Shown: positions 15,727-64,000 of the stretch, piece by piece
How the letters are laid out: each line of letters opens with the position of its first letter
How positions within the stretch are numbered: position 1 is the stretch's first letter
Notes under the pieces: generated by a model
Database searches by the model: none
What the model was told of the DNA's origin: nothing
Seen by the model: the letters and a program-made list of their open reading frames with translations, nothing else
Made by a program: the position numbers and the translations under genes
NCBI RefSeq assembly: GCF_902652985.1
Contig: NC_047015.1
Location: 55,304,001 to 55,368,000, forward strand
Source: Pecten maximus
Taxonomy: Eukaryota
DNA: 64,000 bases
Direction: 5' to 3'

Positions 15727-16718
15727 ATTTCATAAGACGTCTCTAAATGTGCTACCCCACTGTCATTTTTACTTATTTTTAATATATCCCCCCCCCCCCC
15801 CCCCCAAAAAAACAAACAAATGAAAAGACGTCTCAAAATGTGCTATACACAATAGGGAAGGTCCAAATACACGTAGACTGTAACAAACCCTCAAGTCCCT
15901 GTGGCCGCGATGGACGTATGTCATTACTCCGAGATTGTCGCAGTCCATTACAACAATATCAACATATCAGTACGAATTCCTCCTCAATCTACCATGGAAG
16001 ACAGTAAGTAGTTTAATCGGCCAACAATTGTGAACATCTACGAGGGTTTAAAGTACTTATATGTCCATTGAGAGGGCCTACTTATCTTTGTCATATAAAC
16101 GGTTACTTGTTTGTGGTCGACGGCGATTAATAGACGAGGACAAAGCAATTGAAACCTGACCCACAAATACTTCGCCGTAAATAAACCGGGCCAGATATTC
16201 TTTAGATCTACAGCATTTGGAATGTATTTTTTCTCCAATTGTTCGATAAAACAAGCTAAGTAAACAATTTGATATACCTGACTTATGTTCAATTGAGGAC
16301 TCCCTGTGGATTTATCGAATACGATCCATGTCGTGCTCTTAGTACATGTACGGAACGAAGCATTGGCCACAAATGTTCTAAAACACAGATTTGGATCACA
16401 ACCTAATCTACAACGTAATACGTTCTTAAAGACAAAGCTAACTAGAGAGTCGGAGATATATTATCCGGAGAAATGATATTTAAGCATTGAACGGCTTTCA
16501 GTTGGCATTCATAGTCGATATGAATGCCAACTGGACAGAGGCAAATTCCATGAAGCGCGCTATTATATTTACCATCTGCGATTTTTTATTTGTCGTGCGA
16601 TTTTTTTTTGAAATTTTCAAATTCAAATTTCAGTTGGCAGTTCATAAGCTGGTGAACTCGCAACTGAATTGGTAGGGTTATATAGTGGCAGTGCCATACA
16701 ATGGTAAATATCACGTAA

Positions 16719-16936
16719 TGGGGCCGAGTGGTTAAGGTGACCCGACACTTTAACACTAGCCTTCCACCTCTGGGTTGCGAGTTCGAAACCTACGTGGATC
16801 AGTTGCCAGGTACTGACTGTACATGTAGGCTGGTGGTTTTTCTCCGGGTACTCCGGCTTTCCTCCACCTCCAAAACCTGGCACGTCCTTAAATGACCCTG
16901 GTTGTTAATAGGACGTTAAACAAAAACAAACCAAAG
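16719..16936 (+). mobile_element. tRNA-derived V-domain SINE with target-site duplication
   Basis: A box GGCCGAGTGGTTAAGG, B box GTTCGAAAC, V-domain TTTTCTCCGGGTACTCCGGCTTTCCTCCAC and an A/C-rich tail. TSD ATATCACGTAA at 16708-16718 and 16937-16947. Confidence 0.9.
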
Positions 16937-21061: not shown

Positions 21062-22369
21062 TCACGTTTCGTTTTTATCAGATTGAATGTCACTAGCTAC
21101 AGTTTCAAATTCTTTACTACATTTCACTTTGATACTCTTTCTTTGAAAACACATAGCTTGTCTCCGTGCACTCGGAACTGGTGACCTTAAACGGGGGAGA
21201 TGAACCTGCCAGCTGGATGTTAGATTTCCCTCCCTCGTCTCTCCGAACGTAGGGGAAGGCGAAAGAGATGGCGGCAGACCGTCCAAAACATCATCGTATT
21301 TTTTCAAAATTGATTTCGGTTTTTTGTAAAGTTTTGTTTCCTTCTTTGATTGTATGGGTGGTAATCTCACTGGTCGTTTTGGCTTTAGATTAAATTCAAC
21401 CTTTCTCCTTTTCGGGATGTACCTTTTATCGAGGTTTTCTTTGCACAAGAAGTTTACATTCATTTTTGTGGACTTGCTACTTCCCGTTGTATGACTTGAC
21501 CAACTGCCGTCCCTACTCCGTTGCTCCTCGTCATGAATTGGAATTGTTGGTAAAAATCCTGCTTTCTTTAACTTCGGATTTTTCTTTTTCGAATGTTTGA
21601 TTTTGATGGTGTCAGGTGAAGTACTATTAACGTCGAATCGTGGCGCGAGATCTGATTCACTGACGTCACTTTTGACGTCACTTTTGCTGTCAGCTTTATC
21701 ACGGCGCATAGACGTAATAAAGTCACTGCTATCGGCGTAACGTTCCTTTATTTCGTCTAGTTTATCGCCCCATAAAGAATCGTCCGTATACCAACTTGTA
21801 TATGAAGTAGGTCTGCTTCTAGAGGCAATGCTACTCGTCTCCGAATCTATCCTGTCCTTCCGGTACGGTAGTCTTGTCCGTATGGCCTTGACCTTGGACT
21901 GTTTTGATTCCGTACTCCGGACAGAAGAACCACCTTCTGATCCTAGCCGGGTTCGTGACGGTTGCCTCCCGGTTGTAAGCACATCACTGATGATTTGTTT
22001 TGCCGAAATTCTGTTATACGTGATTGTCTCTGTCCGTCGTTTTTGAAGTTTTAAAATGGATCCAAGCTCTGCTGTTGAAGTGTTATTTGAGCGTTGAAGT
22101 GCTCTAAGGGTGTCCAGTCCTTTCTCATAAGGAACTGTTAGGCTTGTAGAACTGATTTTCTGCCTGATATTGGCGTAAGCTGTGGTATCCTTGGCAACGT
22201 CTGCTTTTATGGTTTCTCTGCGAGCGTACCGCAGGTAACTAGGCAACGTAGCAAAGGCATAATTACGTTGCATGGTGCTCGAGTGGGGAAGCTGGACAGG
22301 TGAGCGAAGAGGATGAGTAGGCGATGGGTGTGATAATGAATCGGGCGCGCTAGGAAGCACTGCCGACAT
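21062..22369 (-). CDS. Uncharacterised intronless 435-aa basic, Ser/Lys/Arg-rich, probably disordered protein
   Basis: 1308-nt uninterrupted ORF in AT-rich DNA with raised GC; first ATG at 22369 (the ORF track starts at a GTG, 22378). No recognisable domain. Confidence 0.75.
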   Translation of the reverse strand: MSAVLPSAPDSLSHPSPTHPLRSPVQLPHSSTMQRNYAFATLPSYLRYARRETIKADVAKDTTAYANIRQKISSTSLTVPYEKGLDTLRALQRSNNTSTAELGSILKLQKRRTETITYNRISAKQIISDVLTTGRQPSRTRLGSEGGSSVRSTESKQSKVKAIRTRLPYRKDRIDSETSSIASRSRPTSYTSWYTDDSLWGDKLDEIKERYADSSDFITSMRRDKADSKSDVKSDVSESDLAPRFDVNSTSPDTIKIKHSKKKNPKLKKAGFLPTIPIHDEEQRSRDGSWSSHTTGSSKSTKMNVNFLCKENLDKRYIPKRRKVEFNLKPKRPVRLPPIQSKKETKLYKKPKSILKKYDDVLDGLPPSLSPSPTFGETREGNLTSSWQVHLPRLRSPVPSARRQAMCFQRKSIKVKCSKEFETVASDIQSDKNET

Positions 22370-24625
22370 CTGTAACACCTGGGCGTACCTGACACCTAGT
22401 TCAGGTATTCAAATTCGCACATCAGTGTAGATATAGCCTACTTCTTTTCAGTAGTCCGTGTCTGTAATCGTACAAATTGACACTAACGTCTCCTCCTAAT
22501 CGTAAATACACAGTTATATTAGTACACCTGTACACGTGTTTCGCACCTGGATATTATCATGTAAACACACTTGTTGATATACATATCCGAGATTAAGTCT
22601 ATGCCGTAATACCCGTTAACTGCACCTGATCATGCTATCTATGCACCAATGTATCCTCATCCTATCCTCCCAAAACATACGACACATGCGCGCTGTTTAT
22701 TTCATACATCCACACAACAACACTCATGGAACATAGAATTTGTCCTCCTCGTACACAATCGTACACATATAATTCCGTCCAAAATAGGCACAGCCATTAG
22801 ATACTGGTCATATCCTTGTCAATTCATCTAAACTCCAAATACTGTTAGTTACATTTTTTTCATGTCCGACAGAAATGGAATAACTCCAATCGCGTTCGTG
22901 TATGTTCCCTGGGGGAGCTTCCCTTCGTATAAAATACACAACCTTTCGTGTGATCAAAACAATTTATGTAAAGTAGATGGTAAGACGATTTTGATTCCGT
23001 CACATCAAATCAACGCTAACATTCTTCTACCTCGACACATGACGAGAACCGAGCACTATGTGGCCGCCATAAGTGATTCTGAACATTCTGTGCCCAATCT
23101 TACGATCGCCTTCCCTTTACAGGTAGCTCAACGCTGTACATATTTTTTGTCAAAACGGACCATTGGTCCAATACGCAGACGACCGAATACATAGAACCCG
23201 ATACCGCCGCGGACAGGATAGGAACGGTCTCTATTGACAGACAGCTGATCAGAAGCGATCTATTAAAGGTCGTCACTGCTCGATAGCCGGATTAACCGCA
23301 TGTCAAATGTGTTTTTTACGATTGAAAAAACGAAGACAGCAACGTGAATACGAGAGGATTTACCTTGTATAGTGAATATATATATATTGTGAATTTCTTT
23401 TTTCAATGGCTTTTTATGTATTTCTGACGTGACTGTTATGAACAGGAATTAACATCTTTTGAATATTGAATTTGTGATTTAATAACGAGTGTTGACGCTA
23501 ACAACATAAAGGCCAGACACATCTAACGGTTATATCCTCGAGATTACCTATAGAATTCAAAGAATTGTATGAAGCACATTGGATATCATTTACGTCGAAT
23601 TTACTCATGATACTAATATGAAGAAAATAGACAATTTGGGGTAAATTTAAAGCGTAATCTCGCTGAAATGTCGGAACTAGGACGCGGCAAAACATCGCCC
23701 AAATGATCACTAAGTTTACAGCTAATTACAGTATATCTTATTTTGATGTAAATGAAAGTCAAACGAGTCTTTGTTAACTGACATGCACTGCATATAAATA
23801 ACGAATGGGGAAACATAAATTTCCTCTTAAATGTTAAGTCTTCCCATGGAACATTTTAAGCTAATGCACGCTGATGGAACCAGGGTCAGGGCTGACTGTC
23901 CCGTTGGCTAATTTGTTACTGTAAACGTCGGTATTTTCTTGGATAAAATATAACAGTATAAACAGTCATTCCCTTTTCCTTTAACTTTTCACAAGCAAAA
24001 CCCAATATATTACCCATCTGAAGAGACACCTATTGGTCTACACTATCTTTCGCCTCGCAACAGTCCTACATGGTTCACAGATTGCTAAACAATGGCCATT
24101 TTATTGAGATAATTTTTTAGTTTATAAAAGAAGAAAAGTTCATGAAGATGGAAAAGCATATTTTGCTCTTGTCTGTTTCCCCAAGAATAAGGCATGCATT
24201 TAAACAGATTAGTACAAAACGATGAAGGACACTTATACCATGCACAGAAACTACTATTATTGGTCAAGTCACAATTTAGCGTAAACCGCTAAAACATCAT
24301 TACCACTTACATACATATACATTAACACATGTTGCTCTCGTCGTTTCCAAAAGAATAGGACATGTTTTAGGCATTGATGTGGTATGTGGAGCAATGTTTT
24401 TATACATACAGGAATACCATACGTATTGATATGTATTAATCAATAATTAGAGACCTCGTGGTGATAAGTAAGGTATTGTAATGAGCTGGTGTTCGCTGGA
24501 CACCTGTTGTTGAAATAAATGTACATACAGAGACGTGACATTCAAAGAGTATTCATAAATAATGATGCAATACCATAATAAAACATACAACTTAAACTGT
24601 ATATTAACAGTTCATCAGTATTACA

Positions 24626-24705
24626 TACAGTGGAACTTCGTTAACTCGAACTCGACGGGACCACGAGAAAGCTTCGAGTTATCCGAGTGTTCGAATTAAG
24701 CAGAG
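24626..24705 (+). mobile_element. pogo/Tigger-like terminal fragment
   Basis: TA-CAGTGGAACTTCGTTAACTCGAACTCG followed by an internal inverted repeat (TTCGAGTTATCCGAG); no matching right end seen. Confidence 0.5.
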
Positions 24706-25233
24706 TTGTCATTTTTGGTGCAAAGTTTGGTCAATATTTGTCAACATTATATAATCATTATAACTCCGCTCTGTCGCTCATCAGTTAAGTATAAAGACTG
24801 TACATAGAAAGAACAGTTATATCTTATCTGGGTATGGATATAAGTGGTAACGATTAGAGACATATTCAGTACGGCATGTATTCAGCCCGAATAAAATGGG
24901 AGGAGAAGGGGGTGTTTCAATGATAATTTAATTTCATTATATTATATAATACATTGTATACAGAAACCTTTGTATATCGATGATATCATTATCATTTCAC
25001 ACGATATTAAAATTGTCAGGGCTACTAGGATTCACCACTTCACTATTTTTTGTGTCGTTCAGAGATGCACGTGCAATACGATCTGAGTGGTCGATACTCG
25101 ACATTCCACAACACTTAACAGTCAACATTCTGTCCGCCCATAACACAATCTTAACCAGCTGAGTGAAAACAACCTTTTCTACGTTTGCTTTTTGACAAAA
25201 TCCTACACGTCCTTCCCAATCCTACCGACAACG

Positions 25234-27109
25234 ATGCGTTTTCTACAATTTGTCCCTGTGATAGTTTCACTTCTTCAACTTCAGGCTCAAAGCTTGTGTC
25301 GCGATGCGGATTTGAAAAGTGCAATCACAGAACAAAAAGTAATGGACAATATCAGACCATTCATCGTAGATTTGATGAGAACCCAGCACCAAAAAACTGT
25401 GGATGAGTGCGTGAGAGTGTGTGGCAGAACAGAGAACAGCAGCACGCCATTCCTACAAGACGTTAAGCTGGAACATGAAGATCTTTCAAAAAGAGTGGAA
25501 GAAAATGAGAAGATTGTGAGACAAATAAAGAGAACGAATTCAGATAATACTCTACTGGAAGGTAAGAATGTTTTCTCTAATTTCATGGGTTTTTTTGTTT
25601 TTGTTTAAAACACTTAATCTTTTCAGGTAAAGATTTAGGAATATTGTGCGTGACGTCAGTATGTCAAATAAGGTGACGCCATGAACGGAACAGGGAAATG
25701 TTCAAAACAAAACTGTGAAACAGCAAACTTATTAAACGGTGAACAAAGATAATTTACATGTATGTAATTTATATGTCATAAAACTAGATTTTTTCTGTTT
25801 GGCAAATTGTTCGGGCACTGCCAAACAGTTTAAAATCACGTGGTTTTTTCCCAATAGTCATAAAGTAATTATAATACTATTACGAAATATAAAGTTTATG
25901 TTTTGTCAACCGATGCATTATTTAACGATATTGGGATTTATATTGTTAACCTTGAATTGTATTGAAAAAAACCCTCTTTACATACATGTTCTCGACATTC
26001 TCAACTTCTTTTCTCTTGTACATGTATGACGCGTGTCTTTTCCTATGCTCCAAAGTGCTTATCAAATATATCATCAAAGATAATATTGAAGATTTGTATT
26101 GCTTTTGTCTCATTGTATGATAAAAAGGTAATTTGTGGAAGGCATTGGTGTTAGGAAATTTATTCCTACACTTGTTTTCGGCATTTTTTTTTTATATTAA
26201 TCGTCATGTTGTTCTTACGAATAATCAATAATAAAAACAGTTATTATTAAAAGACACAGTTAAAGTGCAATCCTGTCTTGTTACCAAAATATTTTCACGT
26301 TAAAATATAAAAAGAAAATACTACATTATTATTAATCACAAAATGGGAATAAATACAGTTTGATTATATAAATGTATTCAATTAGTACATGTAGTTAAAC
26401 CTAATAGCACACTCTGTTAAATTATTTCCATTTCGTTTTAGATTTCCCCATCTACATGAGCGAGGCATCGCTGAACCCAAGAACGTTTCTGTCATTTAAC
26501 AGGAAATCCCTTTTCAACTCCCAGAAACCATGGGAAAATCTCACAAATGACTTCCCCTTCGATTGGCCGACGGGAGGTAAAGACACCCTTCAAACATATT
26601 ACGGTGTGAAGGGTTCCCTTCCTTTAAGAAATCCGGACACTGTCTGTTTCGAAGTGGACGCATTCTATAGCATATACTTTAATTTGACTGGACGAAACTT
26701 GTTATTCGAGATCGGAATAGGGAGGGACTGGGTTATTGATAATTCCCATTACATTGGATGGGAGCCCGACTCCACATGGTCGTTTGTTGTTTCTCGTGAT
26801 GACGTCACTGGTCGGGTCATAAGTGCATGTCAATCACACCAAATGAACCATGGTGAATTGACGGATATAAGTAACAGTACGGCCGGTACACGACAGAAAA
26901 TGTCTCTGGGAATTCGAGTCAACATGGCAGATGGCATAATGACGGTTGTGGACAGATCTTCATTAGCCGTCCTCTGTAATTTCACAGATATTGACGTCAC
27001 GCAAGAGCTTTGGCCTATGTTCGGTGTCTATGCAAAGAGTAGTAGTGACGTGGTGATGGCGTTACGTCATAGTTTTCTGGTGTCATCGAGGACATGGATT
27101 GATGTCTGA
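25234..27109 (+). CDS. Secreted protein: signal peptide, coiled coil and SPRY/B30.2-like domain (331 aa)
   Basis: Exon 1 25234-25561 (G|GTAAG) and exon 2 26442-27109 (TTTTAG|AT) join in phase 1 to give 996 nt. N-terminus MRFLQFVPVIVSLLQLQAQS is signal-peptide-like; LQDVKLEHEDLSKRVEENEKIVRQI is heptad-like. The C-terminal motif order (VCFEVD, LFEIGIG, SLGIRVNMADGIMTVVD, CNFTDI, ELWPMFGV) follows the SPRY pattern. Confidence 0.8.
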
Positions 27110-30100
27110 GGGAGTGATACATATACAAGAATACATTTTTATTGCCAACTATGTCTCCATTGGCAAATTGGTGGGGAATAAACAAATGGGTTCCGTCCAT
27201 CCATCCGTTCGATAATGTGTCAAAAGCATACTGTATATAAAAACAACTTCAATATAACTTTATGCGAGTCAAGTTTTTTTGTCTAGTATTGTCCTTTAAG
27301 TAATCTGGTATGGGTTAGTCGGGCCATATCGGATTTTTTAAACGGTTGATAAAACACCAGAAACCGCTGGATAGGCCTTTCATTTGCAACAACGGGAAAA
27401 CACAAGGAAACCCAGCCATTTTCGAAGTATATCTCATCAATAGATTTATTTGAATTTTACCAAATAGATATCGAAAAATATTCAATAAATAAAAGTGATT
27501 TTTTTCACTTGTGAATACACTGTTAGATATCCTCAATATCTTCCCAAGTGACCTATAATATTGCTTTTTTTTTTTGTAGTGACATTTCTCGTCTTTAACA
27601 GTTCCTTGTTATTTCGAATTTCATAAGTATACACATGTTTTATTTGCAATAGTTCCGGCTGAATACTGAATAGTACATACACCACTTACAATTCACGTTC
27701 GAATTTCATCATCTTCGACGACGCCCTCTGCCGGTGATGAGAATGAATGGCATATAATATCTGGATTCTGGTAAATTAAATGACGTCGACACGGTGGTAA
27801 CTAAATTACAAACTATTGATTATTAATTGGATAAAAATATGAAGTTTAATATCAGTAAAAATATGTCGTATGAAATAATGAATACAAGCGTGAAATTCGA
27901 ACAATAATGTGTAATTATTGAATATTACAACACGCCATAACCATAACCACTATATGGAGATATAGACGTTAAAATCGAGAGCACGAGAGGTCGCCGCGGT
28001 GACAAGGGAAATAACTCGCACAAACCAACCCGACACAACCTCATAGGGTTGGGAGGTTAAATATCAATATACAAAACAAAACATTGGATTCCACTTTACT
28101 TACCAGATATCTTGGAGGTCCTCCGACTTCAAGCTTCATAAACCTTCTGAAAAAAACATACCGATTTTATGGGAAATGAAATATAATTTCACTCGTTTGA
28201 ATGGAATGAATAAGAATGACAATGTTTTCTCCTATTTCGGAGAGGGTCTCTGTATGGCGGAAAGTGCCGAGCGTTTCCTAGTGGGAAAGCGGGTAGGATA
28301 CACGCGTATGTCTCATTTAGCGAGCCACGTTGACAGGTTAACACCTATGCTGGTATTCGTAGACATATATCTTCGTCAAATTTTGAATACGATGAAATAT
28401 TCAAGAAAGAATAGGAGGAGGATGTTAAGGTCACGGATATTCTGGCGAGTGAAGGGTGTGATTTTGAGCATTGTTAATCTTGTTGATGTTGTAAAGAAAT
28501 AAAACTAGCACTCGGTGTGGTCGAGCCATTGCAATTTATTTGAAATTTTGTGTTATATCTTGCCATGGGTTGTTGAAGGCGAATGCACGATACAGTGTTA
28601 TAGGATAATTACAGTCACGTAATTTAATGTTACTTTTCGGTCAAGAAATATTAAATAATTCATTTTCGATAAACGCTGGTCATATGAAAGCTCTCTTGTG
28701 CACGTACAACATATCTTTTCTTTCTCCACTACATTCTTCAATTTTACATCAAGAAATAACACAATCTCAAATAAATTGCAAGGTCACGACACAGGGGCTT
28801 GTAAAATCGTGCCAAGCCTCTGTGTACGCGGGTACATGTACACGGGTACCACTCTCAAAGCGGTTACCCATCCAAAAGCTGACTACGCTCGACGTTGCTT
28901 ACCTTCGGTACACCGACACGATACTCAACCGCACAGCTGCACATGCTAGCTATTGGACTATGCTTAGAAATGCCCATATCCACGAACCACGAACCATCAC
29001 ATAGTCTCTATATGTAAAGGGTATACTGCCTATTGGCCTATTTCGACTTAACGGTGACCGTTTTCAAAGTCAAAATTAAAATAAAAAACTGTGTTCTTAA
29101 AAAATACCCTTAAATCTATAAAATATAAATATTCTTATTTGCGAAAAATGTATTTGTAATTTCAATGGATGTTTTATCAAATGACCTTAAAATTGCATCA
29201 TCGGGCTATTTGCAACTTTCGAGGGAGGTTCTCCCGCTTTCAAATAATTTGCTCCTCTTTATTTTATGCATTTAAAAAAATCTTTGGATTTTCTGAATTT
29301 GAACAGTATTTTCACATTTGTAGAAAATTGTTTCTCCTTTCAGCTCATAATGCTGGCATCATTTCCAGCTGTTTTATTTCAAAATATAATCATGTATCTG
29401 CACCAAGAACCTTTTTATAACGTTGTTTTTATACCATTTCCTTCTTTGTACTTACCCCAATTTGTTTCCAAAATGCTCGCCAGTAAAACAATGATTTCGC
29501 AAAACGGAAAACGATGCCATTATTATAAGCTGAAAGAAGGGACAATTTTTGATCAGTGTGCAGACTTTTGGACAAGTCAATTGAAAAATCAAATCAGGAA
29601 AATTCAAATAAAAAGATGGAAAAAAGAAGAGAACAAATAACAAAAGTTGACATAATTTTAGTAGTACCTCAGCTATCTCTTACCATAGTCGCGAAACATG
29701 ATATCGCCGGTAATTTTGAAAAAAAAAAATTAGTAATTAATTTAAAATTTTGACTTATGAAACAAAGATGTTCAGATTTTAACTACATTGTAATTATTTC
29801 AAGCGATATGAATGTCACTATTATAGAACGATGTAGGGTCACATCACACATCATATAATCCAAAAATGTCGACCTGTTAAATATTGAAGTGAGGGCATTT
29901 TTCTTTTTCTTTTTTCCCCTTTTTTTGAAAGGCTCGCATGGGATTATTATTAATTCTTATCCGAATCATATATATATTAATCAAGGGATGGGGATTGGGT
30001 TGGAGGTTTTGAACTAAAAAGTCGAAATCTGCTTTACAGAATTTCACTTTAACACTTACTATCTTCCATATTATTGTCTTCATTGTAAACCATCAGAGTT

Positions 30101-34385: not shown

Positions 34386-37023
34386 ATGGCTTCAATGAGC
34401 GAGGATTTGAGCGCTGTGGTTCTGGACAATGGATCAGGGATGTGCAAGGCTGGATTCGCAGGGGACGACGCCCCTCGTAGTGTATTTCCGTCTATTGTCG
34501 GAAGGCCGAGACATCAGGTATGATTTCTCTCAAATCCCGAAATTGCATACAAACATGATTTGCTTTGAAATCCAATATTCTTCATATGAAGTCGTACTTT
34601 TAGTACATTGTAATTAAGTATCTACAGTAGAGATATCCCGTCTGTTAATTAGATGCACAAGAAAAGTTGTTGCTATTTTCCTTAAAAAAAAATTTATCAC
34701 ACAAAATATTTTCATTCTGTAGATTTTCACTTGTTTTCTCCGACGAAAGAAATTGTCACAGAAGCTAAAGCTTCCATTGTAACTGACAAAATCGTTTTAT
34801 TGATTTACGCGGTATATTTTCCCCTCCTTTTTGAGAAAATGTCGTTTGTCTGACCCTGCATTTTCTCGTTTCTCGTCAAATTTCTTTTCTCACGGAGATT
34901 TTATCTTTGTGTATGTTGTCTGTTTTACCAAATTTTTCTTCATTGTCGCATCTAACAAGCCAATATCTGAACACGCGCCGGCCTTTTTTGCCAAGTGTAA
35001 TGGACTATTGCTTATTCGTTTATTGTTGCCCGTGTTTTTTACAGTTGTGATAAATTGTACCAGTGTACTCGAATTTTATTCACATGCTCTTGTCAGCGTG
35101 CGCAGGTTCGTATTCAAGCCCAAAATCGTAACGAATGCAATCATAATGTGCAAGAAGTGCCTAGACCGCATGTGATGGAATAAGTACGGACGAACAGACA
35201 GATGGTTTGATTTATTTTGTTTAGCGTCCTATTAACAGCCAGGGTCATTTAAAGACGTGCCAGGTGTTGGAGGTGGAGGAACGCCGGAGTACCTGGAGAA
35301 AAACCTCCGACCTACGGTCAGTACCTGGCAACTGCCCCACATTAGGTTTCGAACTCGTAATCCAGAGGTGGAGGGCTAGAGATAACGTGTCGATACACCT
35401 TAACCACTCGGCCACCGCGGCGCCTCAGATGGACATGCGGCCATACAGACAGACACGACATAGCAGTCCTATATTAGCACACTGATCGTTTAATCCGGGC
35501 GTGGCTGATACCCGATATAACCATATCGATTTATATAGCATCCAAGGCAAAGCGATAACTTCTGGCATTGTGTTTCTCCGTAAGCTGTAGTATCATTCAT
35601 TGTAAGCTGAAGCTCTTTAACGACAAACATCACTCTAATTGCAATATCTCGGGGAAATTCACGGCAATCCACGGAAAACAACTTGATTTCCGAGGATTGC
35701 CGGAATCGCAACATTTCGGTAAAATTACCGGCAATCCTCCGATATCAACTTGATCTGCGAGTCGGATTGCCGGTTTCCCCGAGATGCTGCGATTGAAATT
35801 CACTCATCACCTATCGACAGATTCCGGACCTTATATAAAACAACGAAGGGTACGGGAATCAGTCGAGATTAGCCGAATGACCACAAAGTATTTAAGACGG
35901 TTCTCAGATTCCTGACGTTTGTATATTTCCGTATATTTTACTGGATTTGGGGTAGGGGATGGAGCAAATTTCAGGCAATTTAAAAATATAACTGTATTCT
36001 ATTCCTGGTGTGTTTCAGGGCGTCATGATCGGGATGGGCCAAAAGGACTCTTACGTCGGAGACGAGGCTCAGAGCAAAAGAGGCGTCCTCACTCTAAAGT
36101 ACCCTATAGAGCACGGAATCGTCACGAATTGGGACGACATGGAAAAAGTTTGGCACCACACTTTCTATAACGAACTCCGTGTGTCCCCAGATGAACACCC
36201 CATACTCATGACGGAAGCACCGTTAAATCCAAAAGCCAATCGCGAGAAGATGACGCAGATTATGTTCGAGACCTTCAACACACCGGCGTTTTACGTAGCC
36301 ATCCAGGCCGTGTTGTCCCTGTACGCCTCGGGACGCACCACAGGAATAGTGATGGATTCCGGGGACGGTGTAACTCATACCGTTCCCATATACGAAGGAT
36401 ACGCCTTGCCTCACGCCATCTTGAGGATTGACCTCGCAGGTAGGGACCTCACTGATTATTTGATGAAAATCATGACGGAGAGGGGATACTCCTTCACCAC
36501 AACGGCCGAAAGAGAAATAGTCCGAGACATCAAGGAGAAACTCTGCTACATAGCGCTCGATTTTGATGATGATATGGTGTCGTCTGCCACTTCTAAAGAT
36601 ATGGAAAAGACATATGAACTACCAGACGGACAGATCATCAGCATCGGTAACGAGAGGTTCCGGTGTCCAGAGGCGATGTTCCAACCTTCATTCATAGGTA
36701 TGGAAATGGCGGGAATGCACGAATCTACCTTCAATTCAATCCTAAAATGCGATGTGGACATCCGGAAAGATTTATACTCGAATATTGTATTATCTGGCGG
36801 TTCCACAATGTTCCCGGGTGTTGCGGATCGCATGAGTAAAGAGGTCGCGTCCTTGGCACCAGAACTCATCAAGGTGAAGGTCGTGGCGCCACCTGAGCGG
36901 AAGTACTCGGTTTGGATCGGAGGGTCGATCCTGGCGTCATTGTCGACATTTGAACAGATGTGGATAAGTCGACAAGAGTACAACGAGGCAGGGGCCGGCA
37001 TCATTCATAGAAAATGTTTTTAG
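34386..37023 (+). CDS. Divergent actin (378 aa)
   Basis: Exon 1 34386-34517 ([44 protein letters not shown]|GT) and exon 2 36019-37023 ([22 protein letters not shown]...IIHRKCF). The intron is at the conserved RHQ/GVM position and the frame is intact. AATAAA at about 37098. Confidence 0.95.
35206..35425 (-). mobile_element. V-domain SINE (same family as 16719 and 53061) in the actin intron
   Basis: Reverse complement of the 53061 copy; TSD CAGATGG at 35199-35205 and 35426-35432. Confidence 0.85.
35636..35796. mobile_element. Hairpin MITE in the actin intron
   Basis: ATTGCAATATCTCGGGGAAA ... TTTCCCCGAGATGCTGCGAT inverted ends, with internal CGGCAATCC/GGATTGCCG inverted pairs. Confidence 0.55.
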
Positions 37024-59000: not shown

Positions 59001-62000
59001 ACCAGGTATTGAATATTAGTTCAAACGATTCATTGATCTGCTCAGTAATGATTTCATCTTTCAAGGAAAGACTAAACTGTGTAATCCTTGTAATCTTATA
59101 TACAATAATGTATATCAGGTTATTCTTGCAAAGGGTCATTTTTGTGATGTATCATTTTTTAGAAAATCATTGAAATGTATTGTTTGCAAATTTTGCTATT
59201 TTATTCATTGTAAATATTCTCATGAAGTGCACACTTTTTTCAAAATTTGACAAGTGAAAAAGTCCACTGCGCACTATACGCAGGTACAAGCCTTTGCCGT
59301 TCAGATGCATGAATGTGATGCGAAATTATTCATTCAAATTTTGCATTATCAGTGCTTGAGAAGTAATTTAAAAAAAAAAGAAGATAAAAATATTGACCTA
59401 AAATTACCATTGGTACATTTGTATGATGTCATAATATCATTGAATGATGTCATGACATAATCAACATCAAAATCCCTGGAAGAATCGATTAAGGGCTCCC
59501 TGAAGATTTTAGAAGCCTTTTTTTGACGATAGGTGTGGTACATGGTTTAAAATTGAAGTTTAAATGTTTACAGACAATTTGAGGTGGACAGTATCAACTT
59601 CCCTGGACAAGTACACAAGTGGAGACTGACCCGCCTGTTACAAAAAGGTTCCCTGACCGCACAGGACTCACTGCTGAATGTAGGTCTCTCACCAAGTCGT
59701 AGATCATCTAAGAATTTAAACATTACATGCCTTTAATATTACTTTAATCTGCCAGACAGAATAATGCAGGAAAATTTGTGTCTTTTGGCATAGTCCAGTG
59801 CTAACCTGTAAAAACTGAATTTGTACTGCTTTGTAGAATGTTTGTACCTGCCAGATCTGTCCAGTGTTGATTTCACCTCGAGTTAGCAGATTTTATCTTG
59901 TGTGGTAACGCTCACAGCCATAGTGAATTTTGCACCTGTTGCAGAAGGACTAAAATTAATTAAGCTTTAGCAAGGCAGGAAGAAGTAATGCAGGAATATA
60001 TTTACTTGGATCTTGGCTGAAAATTGAACTGTTTCCCTTTGTGTTTGTCTAAAACATATATTACTGCACTTATCCACCCCTGATAAGTGAAATATGTTAC
60101 CTTACTGACAATATAAGAACTTTGATGATTTATTTGTTTTCTGGGTTTATCGCCCACGTGAACAGCCAGGGTCTTTTCAAGGCAGAGTCTCCTTGTAGTA
60201 GTTGGTGACTACCTCACTGAACAACATACCAGATGCCTGTCGTATGCCATCCAGAGCAATTAGGGTAAAGTTTATTTCCTGAGGACACAATCACAGCAGC
60301 ACAGACCAGTCTGTTCCTCAGCTTTCTGAGAAACAATACTGACATTGGAATTCGAAGGGAGTGGCGAACCTGGCACCTCGCACCTTAGATCTTCACCAGA
60401 GGTTACGTGGATGAGCTCTAACCAACTGAGCTTCCACGGATAACTTGTTTAGATAGCAAAATTTTGTTTACTGACGACAAGAAGGATTCAGTCAATTGGT
60501 CAAATATAATAATGTGTGCTTACTGTTATAATTTTGCGACAAAAGAAAACGTGCCGGATCGCAGGATGTCAGTACAGTTATATAAATTTTCAGTATTTCT
60601 ATGTTTCAGGATATGGCTTTAGTGTTGCGGCTGCTGATCATCACCGCCCGTAACAGATTTGTCTCGCACTTCTTCAGTGTGTCCAACTCTTTCAGGGGTC
60701 TAGGTTTAGGCTTTATGAAGATCTTAGGTAGGTTCCCAAGTGTTAGATAGTAGACCCTTCCAGGGTTTTCTCGGACTCTCCAAATCCTTCATTTTGACCC
60801 CTTAATTTGAAAAACTCCCAAAATTGATAAAATCATTTAGGATTTGAGTCCATGAAAACCCTGAATTGCATAAATTATTTATTATGATGCAATATTTTGT
60901 TCAAAGTTTTAGAATGGAATTTTGAATAGCTGTCATCAGGGTGGATATTGGGAAAGTTTTCATGTGACAAATAGATTACTGGATTTTGTGTCCTTGCATG
61001 AAAAAAAAAATGACTTCATTCGGAACTAGATTATCTAAAACCCAAATATATTTATACACAGGAAGGTTCAGGTGGTTCTATGATTGTGATTTGATAAAAA
61101 ACCAGTATGAAAGTTCATAAAATAATTTAAGACCTTAAAAAGTGTTACAGTATGATGTTATACATTCCTACTTCAGGCCATGATAATAAAGTATGTTTAT
61201 AAAGAATTTGACACTATCTGGTCAGTGTGATAATAATAATTCCAAAAAAATTTAAGACATTACTGACAATATTTCATATAATATGGTTAGAAGTAACCGT
61301 ATGTGTGTCAGCGAAAATCATTTAGAAGAACAAAAAGGATTCAGATTACAGAATTTCTACATTAACCCATATAATTACACTTAATTATAATTATAATTCC
61401 TCGTTTTAGATAAATTACACTAAAGATTGTACATGTTCCTCGTTTTAGATATAAATTACACAAGAGATTTGTACATGTTCCTCGTTTTAGAAAAATTACA
61501 CAAGAGATTTGTACATGCTCCTCCTTTTAGATAAATTACACTAGAGATTTGTACATGCTCCCTGTTTTAGATAAATTACACTAGAGATTTGTACATGTTC
61601 CTCGTTTTAGATAAATTACACTAGAGATTTGTACATGTTCCTCGTTTTAGATAAATTACACTAGAGATTTGTACATGTTCCTCGTTTTAGATAAATTACA
61701 CTAGAGATTTGTACATGCTCCTCGTTTTAGATCAATTACACTAGAGATTTGTACATGTTCCTCGTTTTAGAAAAATTACACAAGAGATTTGTACATGCTC
61801 CTCCTTTTAGATAAATTACACTAGAGATTTGTACATGCTCCCTGTTTTAGATAAATTACACTAGAGATTTGTACATGTTCCTCGTTTTAGATAAATTACA
61901 CTAGAGATTTGTACATGTTCCTCGTTTTAGATAAATTACACTAGAGATTTGTACATGTTCCTCGTTTTAGATAAATTACACTAGAGATTTGTACATGCTC

Positions 62001-62188
62001 CTCGTTTTAGATCAATTACACAAGAGATTTGTACATGCTCCTCGTTTTAGATAAATTACACAAGAGATTTGTACGTGCTTCTCGTTTTAGATATCCTGAT
62101 TGGCGTTCCCTCCACAACCTCCGGTGACCTAGATGGTAAGATCCAAGACGAACACATGAGGTACTTGGTGGCAGAACTGGACATCAAG
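50055..62188 (+). CDS. Uncharacterised protein, N-terminal 236 aa; the gene continues beyond the window
   Basis: Seven phase-consistent GT-AG exons: 50055-50102, 54930-55007, 55766-55897, 58493-58620, 59574-59679, 60610-60727, 62091-62188. They give a stop-free MTEMMEDLTLKEMDPE-KETLFFQF...LAESMLFHWKTFPIILP...APTFDELDQVA...FEVDSINFPGQVHKWRL...IITARNRFVSHFFSVS...DILIGVPS...YLVAELDIK. Family not identified with confidence. Confidence 0.85.
50367..51603. repeat. 103-bp satellite array, 12 copies, intronic
   Basis: Period 103 (GAGGCC at 50461, 50564, ...). Inner copies are nearly identical and the edge copies more diverged. Confidence 0.95.
53061..53290 (+). mobile_element. Full-length V-domain SINE
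   Basis: GGGGCCGCGGTGGCCGAGTGGTTAAGG head, V-domain, CAAA tail; TSD ACCAAGACACA at 53048-53058 and 53288-53298. Confidence 0.9.
57093..57162. repeat. 33-bp tandem duplication
   Basis: CAAGTTATCGGTAACCRATATATAGGAGTGTTA, two copies. Confidence 0.8.
57278..58351. mobile_element. pogo/Tigger-type non-autonomous DNA transposon (~1.07 kb)
   Basis: TIRs CAGAGGAGCCCACTTATTTGCATA and TATGCAAATAAGCGGGTTGCTCTG, each flanked by TA; no transposase ORF. Confidence 0.85.
58591..58720 (+). repeat. 45-bp triple repeat spanning an exon end and its 5' splice site
   Basis: TAGACAGCTACAAGATGTCTGGAATTATGG|GTAATTTGTTAAACT at 58591, 58636 and 58681. Confidence 0.9.
60130..60438 (-). mobile_element. Near full-length tRNA-derived CORE-type SINE
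   Basis: Minus-strand head AGCTCAGTTGGTTAGAG (A box) and GGTTCGCCACTCC (B-box-like), a CORE-like GTGTCCTCAGGAAATAAACTTTACCC and a tail ending GACCCTGGCTGTTCACGTGGGCGATAAACCC. Confidence 0.75.
61397..62092 (+). repeat. 40-bp minisatellite made of repeated 3' splice acceptors, with a 280-bp higher-order repeat
   Basis: Unit ATAAATTACACTAGAGATTTGTACATGTTCCTCGTTTTAG; 18 TTTTAG ends from 61409 to 62090, the last being the acceptor of exon 62091-62188. Confidence 0.95.
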
Positions 62189-62715: not shown

Positions 62716-64000
62716 TTAGGTCATCTGACCCGAAGGGTCAGGATGACCTATAGTCATCATGCTTCGTCCGTCGTCGTGCGCCGTGCGCCGTCCGCCGTGC
62801 GTAAACTTTTCACATTTCAATCTTCTTCTCAAGTTCCACCAGTGGGATTAAGCTGAAACTTGCCTGAAATGATCCTGAGATGGTCCTGACCAAGTGTTGT
62901 TATTTTTCGGGTCAGTCCGAAATCCAAGATGGCCGCCATAGCCGCCATTTTGAAAAACACATTTTAAACTTCTTCTCAAGTTCCACTGGTGCCATTGAGC
63001 TGAAACTTGCCTGAAATAATCCTGAGATGATCCCGACCAAGTGTTGTTATTTTTCGGGTCGGTCCGAAATCCAAGATGGCCGCCATAGCCGCCATCTTGA
63101 AAAACACATTTTAAACTTCTTCTCAAGTTCCACTGGTGCCATTGAGCTGAAACTTGCCTGAAATGATCCTGAGATGATCCCGACCAAGTGTTGTTATTTT
63201 TCGGGTCGGTCCGAAATCCAAGATGGCCGCCATAGCCGCCATCTTGAAAAACACATTTTAAACTTCTTCTCAAGTTCCACTGGTGCCATTGAGCTGAAAC
63301 TTGCCTGAAATGATCCTGAGATGATCCCGACCAAGTGTTGTTATTTTTCGGGTCGGTCCGAAATCCAAGATGGCCGCCATAGCCGCCATCTTGAAAAACA
63401 CATTTTAAACTTCTTCTCAAGTTCCACTGGTGCCATTGAGCTGAAACTTGCCTGAAATGATCCCGACCAAGTGTTGTTATTTTTCGGGTCGGTCCGAAAT
63501 CCAAGATGGCCGCCATAGCCGCCATCTTGAAAAACACATTTTAAACTTCTTCTCAAGTTCCACTGGTGCCATTGAGCTGAAACTTGCCAGAAATGATCCT
63601 GAGATGATCCCCACCAAGTGTTGTTATTTTTCGGGCCAATTCGAAATCCAAGATGGCAGCCATAGCCGCCATCTTGAAAAACACATTTTAAACTTCTTCC
63701 CAAGTTCCACCAGTGCTATTGAGCTAAAAATTGCCTGAAATGATCCTGAGATGGTCCTGACCAAGTGTTGTTATTTTTCGGGTCGGTCCGAAATCCAAGA
63801 TGGCCGCCATAGCCGCCATCTTGAAAAACACATTTTAAACTTCTTCTCAAGTTCCACTGGTGCCATTGAGCTGAAACTTGCCTGAAATGATCCTGAGATG
63901 ATCCCGACCAAGTGTTGTTATTTTTCGGGTCGGTCCGAAATCCAAGATGGCCGCCATAGCCGCCATCTTGAAAAACACATTTTAAACTTCTTCTCAAGTT
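62716..64000 (+). mobile_element. Non-autonomous Helentron (HINE) with a 147-bp tandem array, running off the window
   Basis: 5' hairpin TTAGGTCATCTGACCCGAAGGGTCAGGATGACCTA and a (CGTC/CGTG)n microsatellite. Units start at 62822, 62969, 63116, 63263, 63410, 63546 (preceding unit 11 bp short), 63693, 63840 and 63987. Confidence 0.9.

What the first reader, a model, noticed from the sequence alone, without database searches (positions are those of the whole stretch)
25234..27109. Secreted coiled-coil + SPRY/B30.2-like protein: a candidate new class of soluble recognition or effector molecule
Seen: signal peptide, Cys-containing N-terminal segment (LC...ECVRVC), coiled coil, a phase-1 intron, then a ~220-aa beta-rich domain with SPRY-like motif order and several N-glycosylation sequons (NLT twice, NST, NFT) consistent with secretion. 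Established: SPRY/B30.2 domains are normally cytosolic (TRIMs); secreted examples are snake vespryns and nematode SPRYSECs; signal + coiled coil + globular head is the layout of bivalve C1q-domain and fibrinogen-domain pattern-recognition proteins. Inference: exon shuffling placed a SPRY head on an oligomerising lectin-type stalk, possibly an undescribed immune, mucus or shell-matrix family.
Basis: partly seen in the sequence, partly recalled or inferred. Interest (0 to 1): 0.7.

Follow-up and report, generated by a model that had tools for sequence, protein, structure and literature searches.

The report
Secreted TRIM-type SPRY protein of scallops
A spliced scallop gene joins the target-binding B30.2/SPRY domain of cytosolic TRIM proteins to a likely signal peptide and a stalk predicted to form trimers, so it is likely a secreted, multivalent binding protein of a bivalve family that we did not find described, and its partner is untested.

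Summary
The gene is real. Two exons (25234-25561, 26442-27109) are joined across an 880-nt GT..AG intron in 6 of 7 runs laid, giving a 331-aa protein with single orthologues in three other scallop genera. Exon 2 has no Pfam hit, but is a B30.2/PRYSPRY domain by profile (MID1, E 3e-10) and by fold (Z 20.3 to TRIM25). It belongs to a mollusc-type subfamily that usually ends TRIM proteins: 5 of the 9 such exons in this genome follow RING/B-box exons and all 9 open at the same phase-1 acceptor. Four have a signal-peptide-like start and a homologous stalk instead; mussel relatives are type II membrane proteins. The stalk is predicted to form a parallel trimer (0.53 against 0.01 for controls). Secretion is inferred, not shown; no SignalP was available. 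The stalk was not traced to C1q or fibrinogen-domain genes, and the focal gene is single-copy and conserved, which does not favour an arms-race immune receptor. Verdict: a new variant of a known kind, function open.

The parts
25184..25233 (+). 5' untranslated region (at least this far)
   Evidence: contigs start at 25184 (X1), 25204 (X4) and 25222 (X15); first in-frame stop upstream in the genome at 25141
25234..25561 (+). coding exon 1, 328 nt, ends in phase 1
25234..25293 (+). likely signal peptide, residues 1-20; (A/V)-Q-(S/G) before the likely cleavage site in 4 of 4 orthologues
   Evidence: hydropathy; alignment; inferred, no predictor run
25294..25422 (+). conserved helix, residues 21-63, with Cys22, Cys59, Cys63 and the EQxVxxxIRP motif shared with the C14 paralogues
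   Evidence: 21 of 43 columns invariant in 4 orthologues; hhalign probability 51%, E 1.5e-4 to C14 stalks; helix
25450..25536 (+). coiled coil, residues 73-101 (core 74, 77, 81, 84, 88, 91, 95, 98)
   Evidence: helix 72-100; these positions form the predicted three-chain interface
25562..26441 (+). 880-nt phase-1 GT..AG intron
   Evidence: joint in 6 of 7 runs
26442..27109 (+). coding exon 2: whole B30.2/PRYSPRY domain, residues 110-331, and stop
27110..27600 (+). 3' untranslated region; AATAAA at 27177 and 27484
   Evidence: contigs to 27583 (X1) and past 27600 (X3); motifs
15929..16003 (+). rare upstream exon spliced to a cryptic acceptor at 25285, inside the signal-peptide codons; its ATGs are out of frame, first in-frame ATG is Met37 (25342)
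   Evidence: one contig of one run (X3, depth 4.9), GT..AG, 9281 nt skipped

Best explanation
This gene encodes a B30.2/PRYSPRY domain behind a likely cleaved signal peptide and a helical stalk predicted to form a parallel trimer, so the protein is likely secreted and likely binds a conserved protein or glycoprotein partner outside the cell with three heads at once. Shown: the exons are spliced, the head is a B30.2 fold, and its exon opens at the same phase-1 position as the last exon of the five TRIM genes of this subfamily in the genome. Inferred: the last exon of a TRIM gene was duplicated and came under a new first exon (signal peptide + stalk); RING and B-box were left behind, so the protein cannot ubiquitinate and would act by binding, cross-linking or coating its target; Cys59 and Cys63 would link the chains. 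The strongly conserved loops and single copy point to a fixed partner (host matrix, mucus, cell surface, or an invariant microbial structure) more than to a fast-changing pathogen.
For: Splicing. Fold: AlphaFold2 mean pLDDT 81; Foldseek top rows are butyrophilin and TRIM B30.2 domains (E about 1e-8); VIA-align Z 20.3, rmsd 3.8 A over 186 residues to TRIM25 PRYSPRY, best lectin Z 13.7; family profile hits MID1 over positions 17-206, E 3.1e-10. TRIM link: 18 of 35 relatives scanned carry B-boxes; 5 of 9 genomic exons lie behind RING/B-box exons; 9 of 9 have a phase-1 acceptor at one position (predicted from sequence except for the focal gene). Secretory pathway: hydrophobic N-terminus in 4 of 4 orthologues at only 48% identity; three C14 paralogues with clearer signal peptides share the stalk motif; relatives put the same head behind PAN or thrombospondin-1 domains or a type II membrane anchor; six Cys invariant in 4 of 4 and each head sequon kept in 3 or 4 of 4 orthologues; sequons 1.1-1.25 per 100 aa in 12 signal/membrane-borne heads against 0.52 in 24 TRIM-borne heads, p = 0.013. 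Oligomer: three copies of residues 21-104 scored 0.53, best of 3 controls 0.01, runs agree in at least 94% of contacts, pLDDT at least 79, in-register contacts including Cys59-Cys59; the mark was reached by 21 of 30 solved pairs and 0 of 23 single chains (microbes), 17 of 29 and 0 of 30 (eukaryotes). Fixed partner: loops 186-196, 222-241 and 303-312 are 86-93% identical among four genera; one copy per species found.
Against: No signal-peptide predictor, proteomic or tissue data. The hydrophobic core is short and holds Gln and Pro; one orthologue model (P0003) has 26 extra residues before it. The sequon contrast is not phylogenetically independent, and the extracellular heads also have more Asn and Ser/Thr. 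Only three copies were modelled, the calibration used two, and on eukaryotes only 1 of 7 proteins without an older solved relative passed, so the pass may be from memory of coiled coils; the RhxxhE trimer motif (recalled from the literature) is in 5 of 5 C14 first exons but in 0 of 4 focal orthologues. The tree does not resolve which TRIM gave the head, nor whether the two scallop secreted groups share one origin (2 changes in all 200 bootstrap trees). A rare splice form removes the signal peptide.
Confidence: 0.6

Rival explanations
1. It is a diversifying immune pattern-recognition protein (an opsonin) that works like bivalve C1q-domain and fibrinogen-domain proteins, with a B30.2 head in place of the lectin head.
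For: Same layout (signal, trimer-predicted stalk, globular head). A relative in another scallop (P0015, a predicted model, not verified here) carries the head behind a signal + PAN-like exon, and in this genome the best matches of that exon are followed by fibrinogen-C exons in 3 of the 4 loci examined, so the two heads appear exchangeable. The C14 paralogues are a tandem array of three genes plus two orphan first exons, with a separate triplication in another scallop.
Against: The focal gene is single-copy with conserved loops; the whole secreted set is 4 intact genes in the genome, not a large expansion; the stalk matches no C1q or fibrinogen-domain gene; lectins score clearly below B30.2 in the fold search. 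This reading fits the C14 trio better than the focal gene.
Confidence: 0.2
2. The hydrophobic start is an uncleaved signal anchor, so the protein is a type II membrane or ER-lumenal protein with stalk and head on the outer side, like the mussel relatives.
For: Mussel relatives P0013, P0029, P0036, P0057, P0076 have a membrane helix before the head; P0013's starts at residue 3.
Against: Best 19-residue hydropathy is only 1.38; a small-x-small cleavage motif follows in 4 of 4 orthologues; the C-terminus (TWIDV) is not a KDEL-type signal (sequence).
Confidence: 0.11
3. It is a cytosolic truncated TRIM (coiled coil + PRYSPRY without RING) that acts as an adaptor or dominant-negative regulator; the hydrophobic start is incidental.
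For: B30.2 domains are normally cytosolic; one contig shows a form without the signal peptide whose first in-frame ATG is Met37.
Against: Hydrophobic N-termini in all orthologues and C14 paralogues, none as high in 18 TRIMs; the stalk profile ranks C14 stalks above every TRIM; predicted contacts are parallel and in register, unlike the antiparallel TRIM dimer (recalled); the signal-less form was seen in 1 of 7 runs and carries out-of-frame upstream ATGs.
Confidence: 0.06
4. It is a defensive toxin-like protein akin to snake vespryns or the B30.2 part of stonefish toxin.
For: Vespryns are secreted B30.2 proteins (recalled; search listing only); stonustoxin's B30.2 appears among the fold matches (Z 17.9).
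Against: The match covers only the head, as for any B30.2; no pore-forming domain is present in 331 aa; no sequence relative among the 58 hits was named as a toxin (20 hits looked up).
Confidence: 0.03

Closest known systems
Molluscan TRIM proteins with RING, B-boxes, coiled coil, filamin repeat and a C-terminal divergent PRYSPRY (e.g. P0008, named TRIM3-like; Atlas clusters named TRIM33-like and TRIM56-like)
   Same: Head domain (25-32% identity), same phase-1 exon start, same fold
   Different: No RING, B-box or filamin repeat; signal-peptide-like start; unrelated short stalk predicted parallel
Vertebrate B30.2/PRYSPRY domains (TRIM25, MID1, TRIM21, butyrophilins)
   Same: Fold and profile homology
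   Different: 11-18% identity, longer loops, no Pfam SPRY/PRY hit on its own; in butyrophilins the domain is intracellular (entry titles)
SPRYSEC effectors of cyst nematodes (PMC5071358, passages read)
   Same: Signal peptide and a single SPRY domain, no catalytic part
   Different: SPRYSECs lack PRY similarity and are a hypervariable expanded parasite family; this protein has a PRY-like part, a coiled-coil stalk, and is single-copy and conserved in a free-living bivalve
Snake vespryns (ohanin, thaicobrin; recalled, search listing only)
   Same: Secreted B30.2-domain protein
   Different: Vespryns are short venom proteins without a coiled-coil stalk (recalled); no sequence link found in the searches
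Bivalve C1q-domain and fibrinogen-related proteins (layout recalled)
   Same: Signal + coiled coil + C-terminal globular head; predicted trimer; a PAN first exon appears shared between fibrinogen heads and a SPRY head in scallops
   Different: Head is B30.2, not C1q or fibrinogen-C; stalk not homologous by search; few copies

Membership tests
B30.2/PRYSPRY domain | Two-sheet beta-sandwich superimposable on solved PRYSPRY domains | tested here: met
   Z 20.3, rmsd 3.8, 186 aligned (TRIM25); Z 19.6, rmsd 2.7, 170 aligned; 18 top rows all B30.2; Foldseek
B30.2/PRYSPRY domain | Sequence homology over both PRY and SPRY parts | tested here: met
   42-sequence profile hits MID1 PRYSPRY at positions 17-206, E 3.1e-10, and 48 further B30.2 chains; relatives hit Pfam SPRY and PRY, P0006 above the cut-off
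B30.2/PRYSPRY domain | LDP, YFEVE and LDLE motifs (PMC5071358) | tested here: inconclusive
   diverged forms MSE115, CFEVD178, VNMA269; paralogues keep MDP and YFE; the protein alone has no Pfam hit
TRIM (RBCC) proteins | RING and B-box domains | tested here: not met
   none in the 331-aa product; transcripts cover the ATG from 25184
TRIM (RBCC) proteins | Long antiparallel coiled-coil dimer | not tested
   only three copies were modelled; contacts were parallel
C1q-domain / fibrinogen-related recognition proteins | C1q or fibrinogen-C head | tested here: not met
   head is B30.2
C1q-domain / fibrinogen-related recognition proteins | Signal peptide and trimer-forming coiled-coil stalk | tested here: inconclusive
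   hydropathy and conservation and a predicted trimer fit; neither is shown
C1q-domain / fibrinogen-related recognition proteins | Binding of microbial glycans or surfaces | not testable with these tools
   needs binding assays
SPRYSEC effectors | Signal peptide plus single SPRY domain whose N-terminal extension has no PRY similarity, in cyst nematodes | tested here: not met
   profile matches PRY regions of TRIM21/MID1; protein has an added stalk; scallop gene
Vespryns | Signal/propeptide plus B30.2 alone, venom-gland product (recalled) | tested here: not met
   80-residue stalk present; no vespryn among the named relatives
Butyrophilins | Ig ectodomain, membrane helix, cytosolic B30.2 | tested here: not met
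   no Ig domain and no membrane helix

The most novel reading that the evidence does not exclude
Bivalves have repeatedly moved the TRIM target-recognition domain to the outside of the cell and use it as an exchangeable recognition head, alongside fibrinogen and C1q heads: secreted trimers (scallop stalk type), secreted PAN fusions, and type II membrane receptors with thrombospondin-1 repeats (mussels). This would be an overlooked extracellular recognition family, invisible to Pfam, in which an intracellular antiviral-type binder became a humoral and cell-surface one.
Probability: 0.3. Interest if true: 0.75.

Novelty: new variant of a known kind. Interest (0 to 1): 0.52.

Why it matters
B30.2 domains are textbook cytosolic target selectors. 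A conserved, expressed scallop gene and its scallop and mussel relatives that place this domain in the secretory pathway add a candidate class to the bivalve secretome that Pfam-based immune and shell surveys would miss (all named relatives are 'uncharacterized' or misnamed). The shared phase-1 exon start makes it a clean case of exon shuffling across cell compartments. It matters less if the partner is a routine matrix protein; secreted SPRY proteins as such are not new.

Tried and rejected
Pfam on both exons and on the whole protein: no SPRY/PRY hit. Single-sequence search of solved structures: only RNF135 at E 0.18. Word-indexed protein searches found only the four scallop orthologues and, with the family profile, 19 proteins; longer or shorter forms were not searched there. 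Stalk origin from C1q or fibrinogen-domain genes: exon 1 found only itself and the C14 first exon found only five C14 copies; these genome searches score only the best candidates, so a distant link is not excluded. A different head behind the two orphan C14 first exons: none found on the + strand within about 15 kb. A ConA-type lectin fold as the better match: rejected, Z at most 13.7. First sequon count used envelopes that ran beyond the domain and was replaced, which left out 10 near-duplicates or orthologues and all unclassified fragments. Nearest TRIM: the quick tree (51 rows) grouped the secreted heads with L003/P0008 at 93, unstarred; the careful tree (47 rows, six long-branch rows dropped, two outgroup rows added) left it open. 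Tissue or level of expression: contigs cannot give it, and library descriptions were mostly absent. Literature: eight searches of main texts (listings and abstract starts only) found no paper on these genes or on secreted or membrane B30.2 proteins of bivalves; the three gene identifiers had 0 hits; subscription journals and supplementary tables of scallop proteomes or transcriptomes were not searched and may list the gene. Passages read: PMC5071358 and PMC4202326 (not relevant). Earlier findings of this scan: nothing.

Full report
Observation. The window holds an ATG at 25234, a phase-1 donor after 25561, an acceptor before 26442 and a stop at 27107-27109; the spliced frame is 331 aa with Cys22, 59, 63, 178, 239, 288 and sequons at 68, 142, 190, 254, 289. 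Contigs of public runs skip exactly this 880-nt GT..AG intron in 6 of 7 runs laid, from 5 studies; one run (X4) had no contig across it, and only X8 is on record as RNA. Contigs cover the start codon from 25184 onward. Exon 2 matches a 331-aa scallop protein at 100% (P0001, uncharacterized), and single orthologues of 65-71% identity occur in three other scallop genera.

The head. Exon 2 has no Pfam hit and only RNF135 PRYSPRY at E 0.18 among solved structures. A search of 1.84 billion representatives gave 58 hits at E up to 0.001. A 42-sequence profile built from these and from the genomic paralogues hits MID1 PRYSPRY over profile positions 17-206 at E 3.1e-10, then TRIM21 and butyrophilins (49 sequences). 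The AlphaFold2 model (38 sequences, mean pLDDT 81, pTM 0.69) matches B30.2 domains by Foldseek (E about 1e-8) and VIA-align (Z 20.3, rmsd 3.8 A, 186 residues to TRIM25; the first 18 rows are B30.2; best lectin Z 13.7). The Atlas puts it nearest the C-terminal domains of molluscan TRIM clusters. It is therefore a divergent, mollusc-type B30.2/PRYSPRY domain.

Where the head comes from. Three queries found the same 9 exons of this subfamily in the genome (a lower bound). Five lie 3-10 kb behind RING/B-box/coiled-coil exons and are TRIM last exons; three form a tandem array on C14, each behind a first exon with a clear hydrophobic start and a short coiled coil; the ninth is the focal gene. All 9 have a phase-1 acceptor at the same position (predicted from sequence except the focal one). 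Of 35 database relatives scanned, 18 carry B-boxes; named ones include scallop, mussel, ark shell and Solemya TRIMs and an abalone fragment. Duplication of a TRIM last exon under a new first exon is the simplest reading (inference). The trees give three well-supported non-TRIM groups: the four focal orthologues (99/96), the C14/PAN group (100/99) and a mussel membrane group (100/99), with their relations and the donor TRIM unresolved.

Secretion. No predictor was available. Residues 1-20 are hydrophobic in 4 of 4 orthologues at only 48% identity and end in (A/V)-Q-(S/G); best 10-mer hydropathy is 1.80-2.98 in six signal-bearing proteins against at most 1.64 in 18 TRIM starts. The best 19-mer is 1.38, short for a membrane anchor. 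Context agrees: the C14 paralogues share the stalk motif EQxVxxxIRP (hhalign 51%, E 1.5e-4; three C14 exons rank above all other stored proteins); five named mussel relatives and two unnamed ones put the head behind a type II membrane helix, several with a thrombospondin-1 repeat between; and one scallop model puts it behind a signal and a PAN-like domain (P0015). Sequons are about twice as dense in 12 such heads as in 24 TRIM heads (p = 0.013; 0 of 24 TRIM heads have four), but the samples are related and Asn and Ser/Thr content also differ, so this is weak support. Against: one orthologue model has a 26-residue extension, and one contig in one run splices an exon at 15929-16003 into the signal-peptide codons at 25285; its ATGs are out of frame, so it is likely unproductive or gives a minor signal-less form from Met37.

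The stalk. Three copies of residues 21-104 scored 0.53 against 0.01 for the best of three controls; runs agreed in at least 94% of contacts, pLDDT at least 79; contacts are parallel and in register, with core positions 74-98 and Cys59 against Cys59. The mark was reached by 21 of 30 solved pairs and 0 of 23 single chains in microbes, 17 of 29 and 0 of 30 in eukaryotes, but by only 1 of 7 eukaryotic proteins without an older solved relative; the calibration used two copies, and two or four copies were not tried. So self-association is supported by the model, not shown, and the number three was my choice. The stalk was not traced to C1q or fibrinogen-domain genes. Head exchange does appear in the family: the PAN-like first exon of P0015 has many matches in this genome, and in 3 of the 4 loci examined fibrinogen-C exons follow; P0015 itself is an unverified model.

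How it likely works. B30.2 domains bind proteins through loops on one face of the sandwich (PMC5071358, passages; established). Without RING or B-box this protein can only bind. Secreted and trimeric, it would hold a repeated target with three heads, as collectin-like proteins do (inference). Several head loops are 86-93% identical across four genera and the gene is single-copy, which suggests a fixed partner; the duplicated, more divergent C14 trio fits an immune role better. I put 0.6 on a secreted multivalent binder of a conserved partner, 0.2 on a diversifying pattern-recognition role, 0.11 on a membrane-anchored form, 0.06 on a cytosolic form and 0.03 on a toxin-like role.

Novelty. Secreted SPRY proteins are known (nematode SPRYSECs, with others predicted across eukaryotes; vespryns, recalled), so this is not a new category. 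The signal + stalk + B30.2 layout and the bivalve set of extracellular B30.2 proteins were not found in eight searches of open papers (listings only; supplements and subscription journals unseen) nor in earlier findings of this scan. Verdict: real gene, new variant of a known kind, interest 0.52.

Noticed in passing
G000:C14:18952000-18966000 (L011, L012): Tandem trio of three-exon genes: signal peptide + RhxxhE-type coiled coil, a small Cys exon (CPxxxxCxxxGLxC), and the B30.2 exon; 50-56% identical to relatives in another scallop that has its own triplication.
   Followed up: partly
L056:1574-1831 and 4607-4963 (G000:C14:18971582, 18974615): Two further copies of the C14 first exon with no Cys exon or B30.2 exon found downstream; likely relics of tandem duplication.
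   Followed up: partly
P0013, P0029, P0036, P0057, P0076, P0094, P0011: Type II membrane proteins (five named from mussels) with an extracellular-side B30.2 head, some with a thrombospondin-1 repeat and Tyr-rich cytosolic tails that could be signalling motifs; many single-exon variants in read assemblies.
   Followed up: partly
L059, L060, L062 (G000:C17:27308000-27328000; C12:24734700-24744700): Signal + PAN-like exon followed by fibrinogen-C exons; the same first exon type carries a B30.2 head in P0015.
   Followed up: partly
window 15929-16003 to 25285: Rare 9.3-kb splice into the signal-peptide codons, spanning a minus-strand gene; one contig, one run.
   Followed up: yes
window 21062-22408 (-): 448-aa Ser/Arg/Lys-rich open frame with no Pfam hit, covered by long contigs in X3, X7, X10.
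   Followed up: no
window 809-9400 (+), 3' region to about 14360: Spliced multi-exon gene upstream (three GT..AG joints at 7882-9124); its first exons look like the neck and stalk of a KIF19-type kinesin (recalled; Pfam gave only weak coiled-coil hits).
   Followed up: no
window 35992-37020 (+): Actin coding exon (Pfam Actin E 1.6e-127).
   Followed up: no
window 16476-16936 and 24640-24730: Very high-depth interspersed repeats in the run contigs, with many loose ends; likely mobile-element copies.
   Followed up: no
window 5670-6680, 50367-51604, 61397-62093, 62811-64000: Tandem arrays with periods 324, 103, 40 and 147; no tRNA genes in the window.
   Followed up: no
P0006: Mussel TRIM of 1258 aa with two B30.2 heads of this subfamily.
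   Followed up: no
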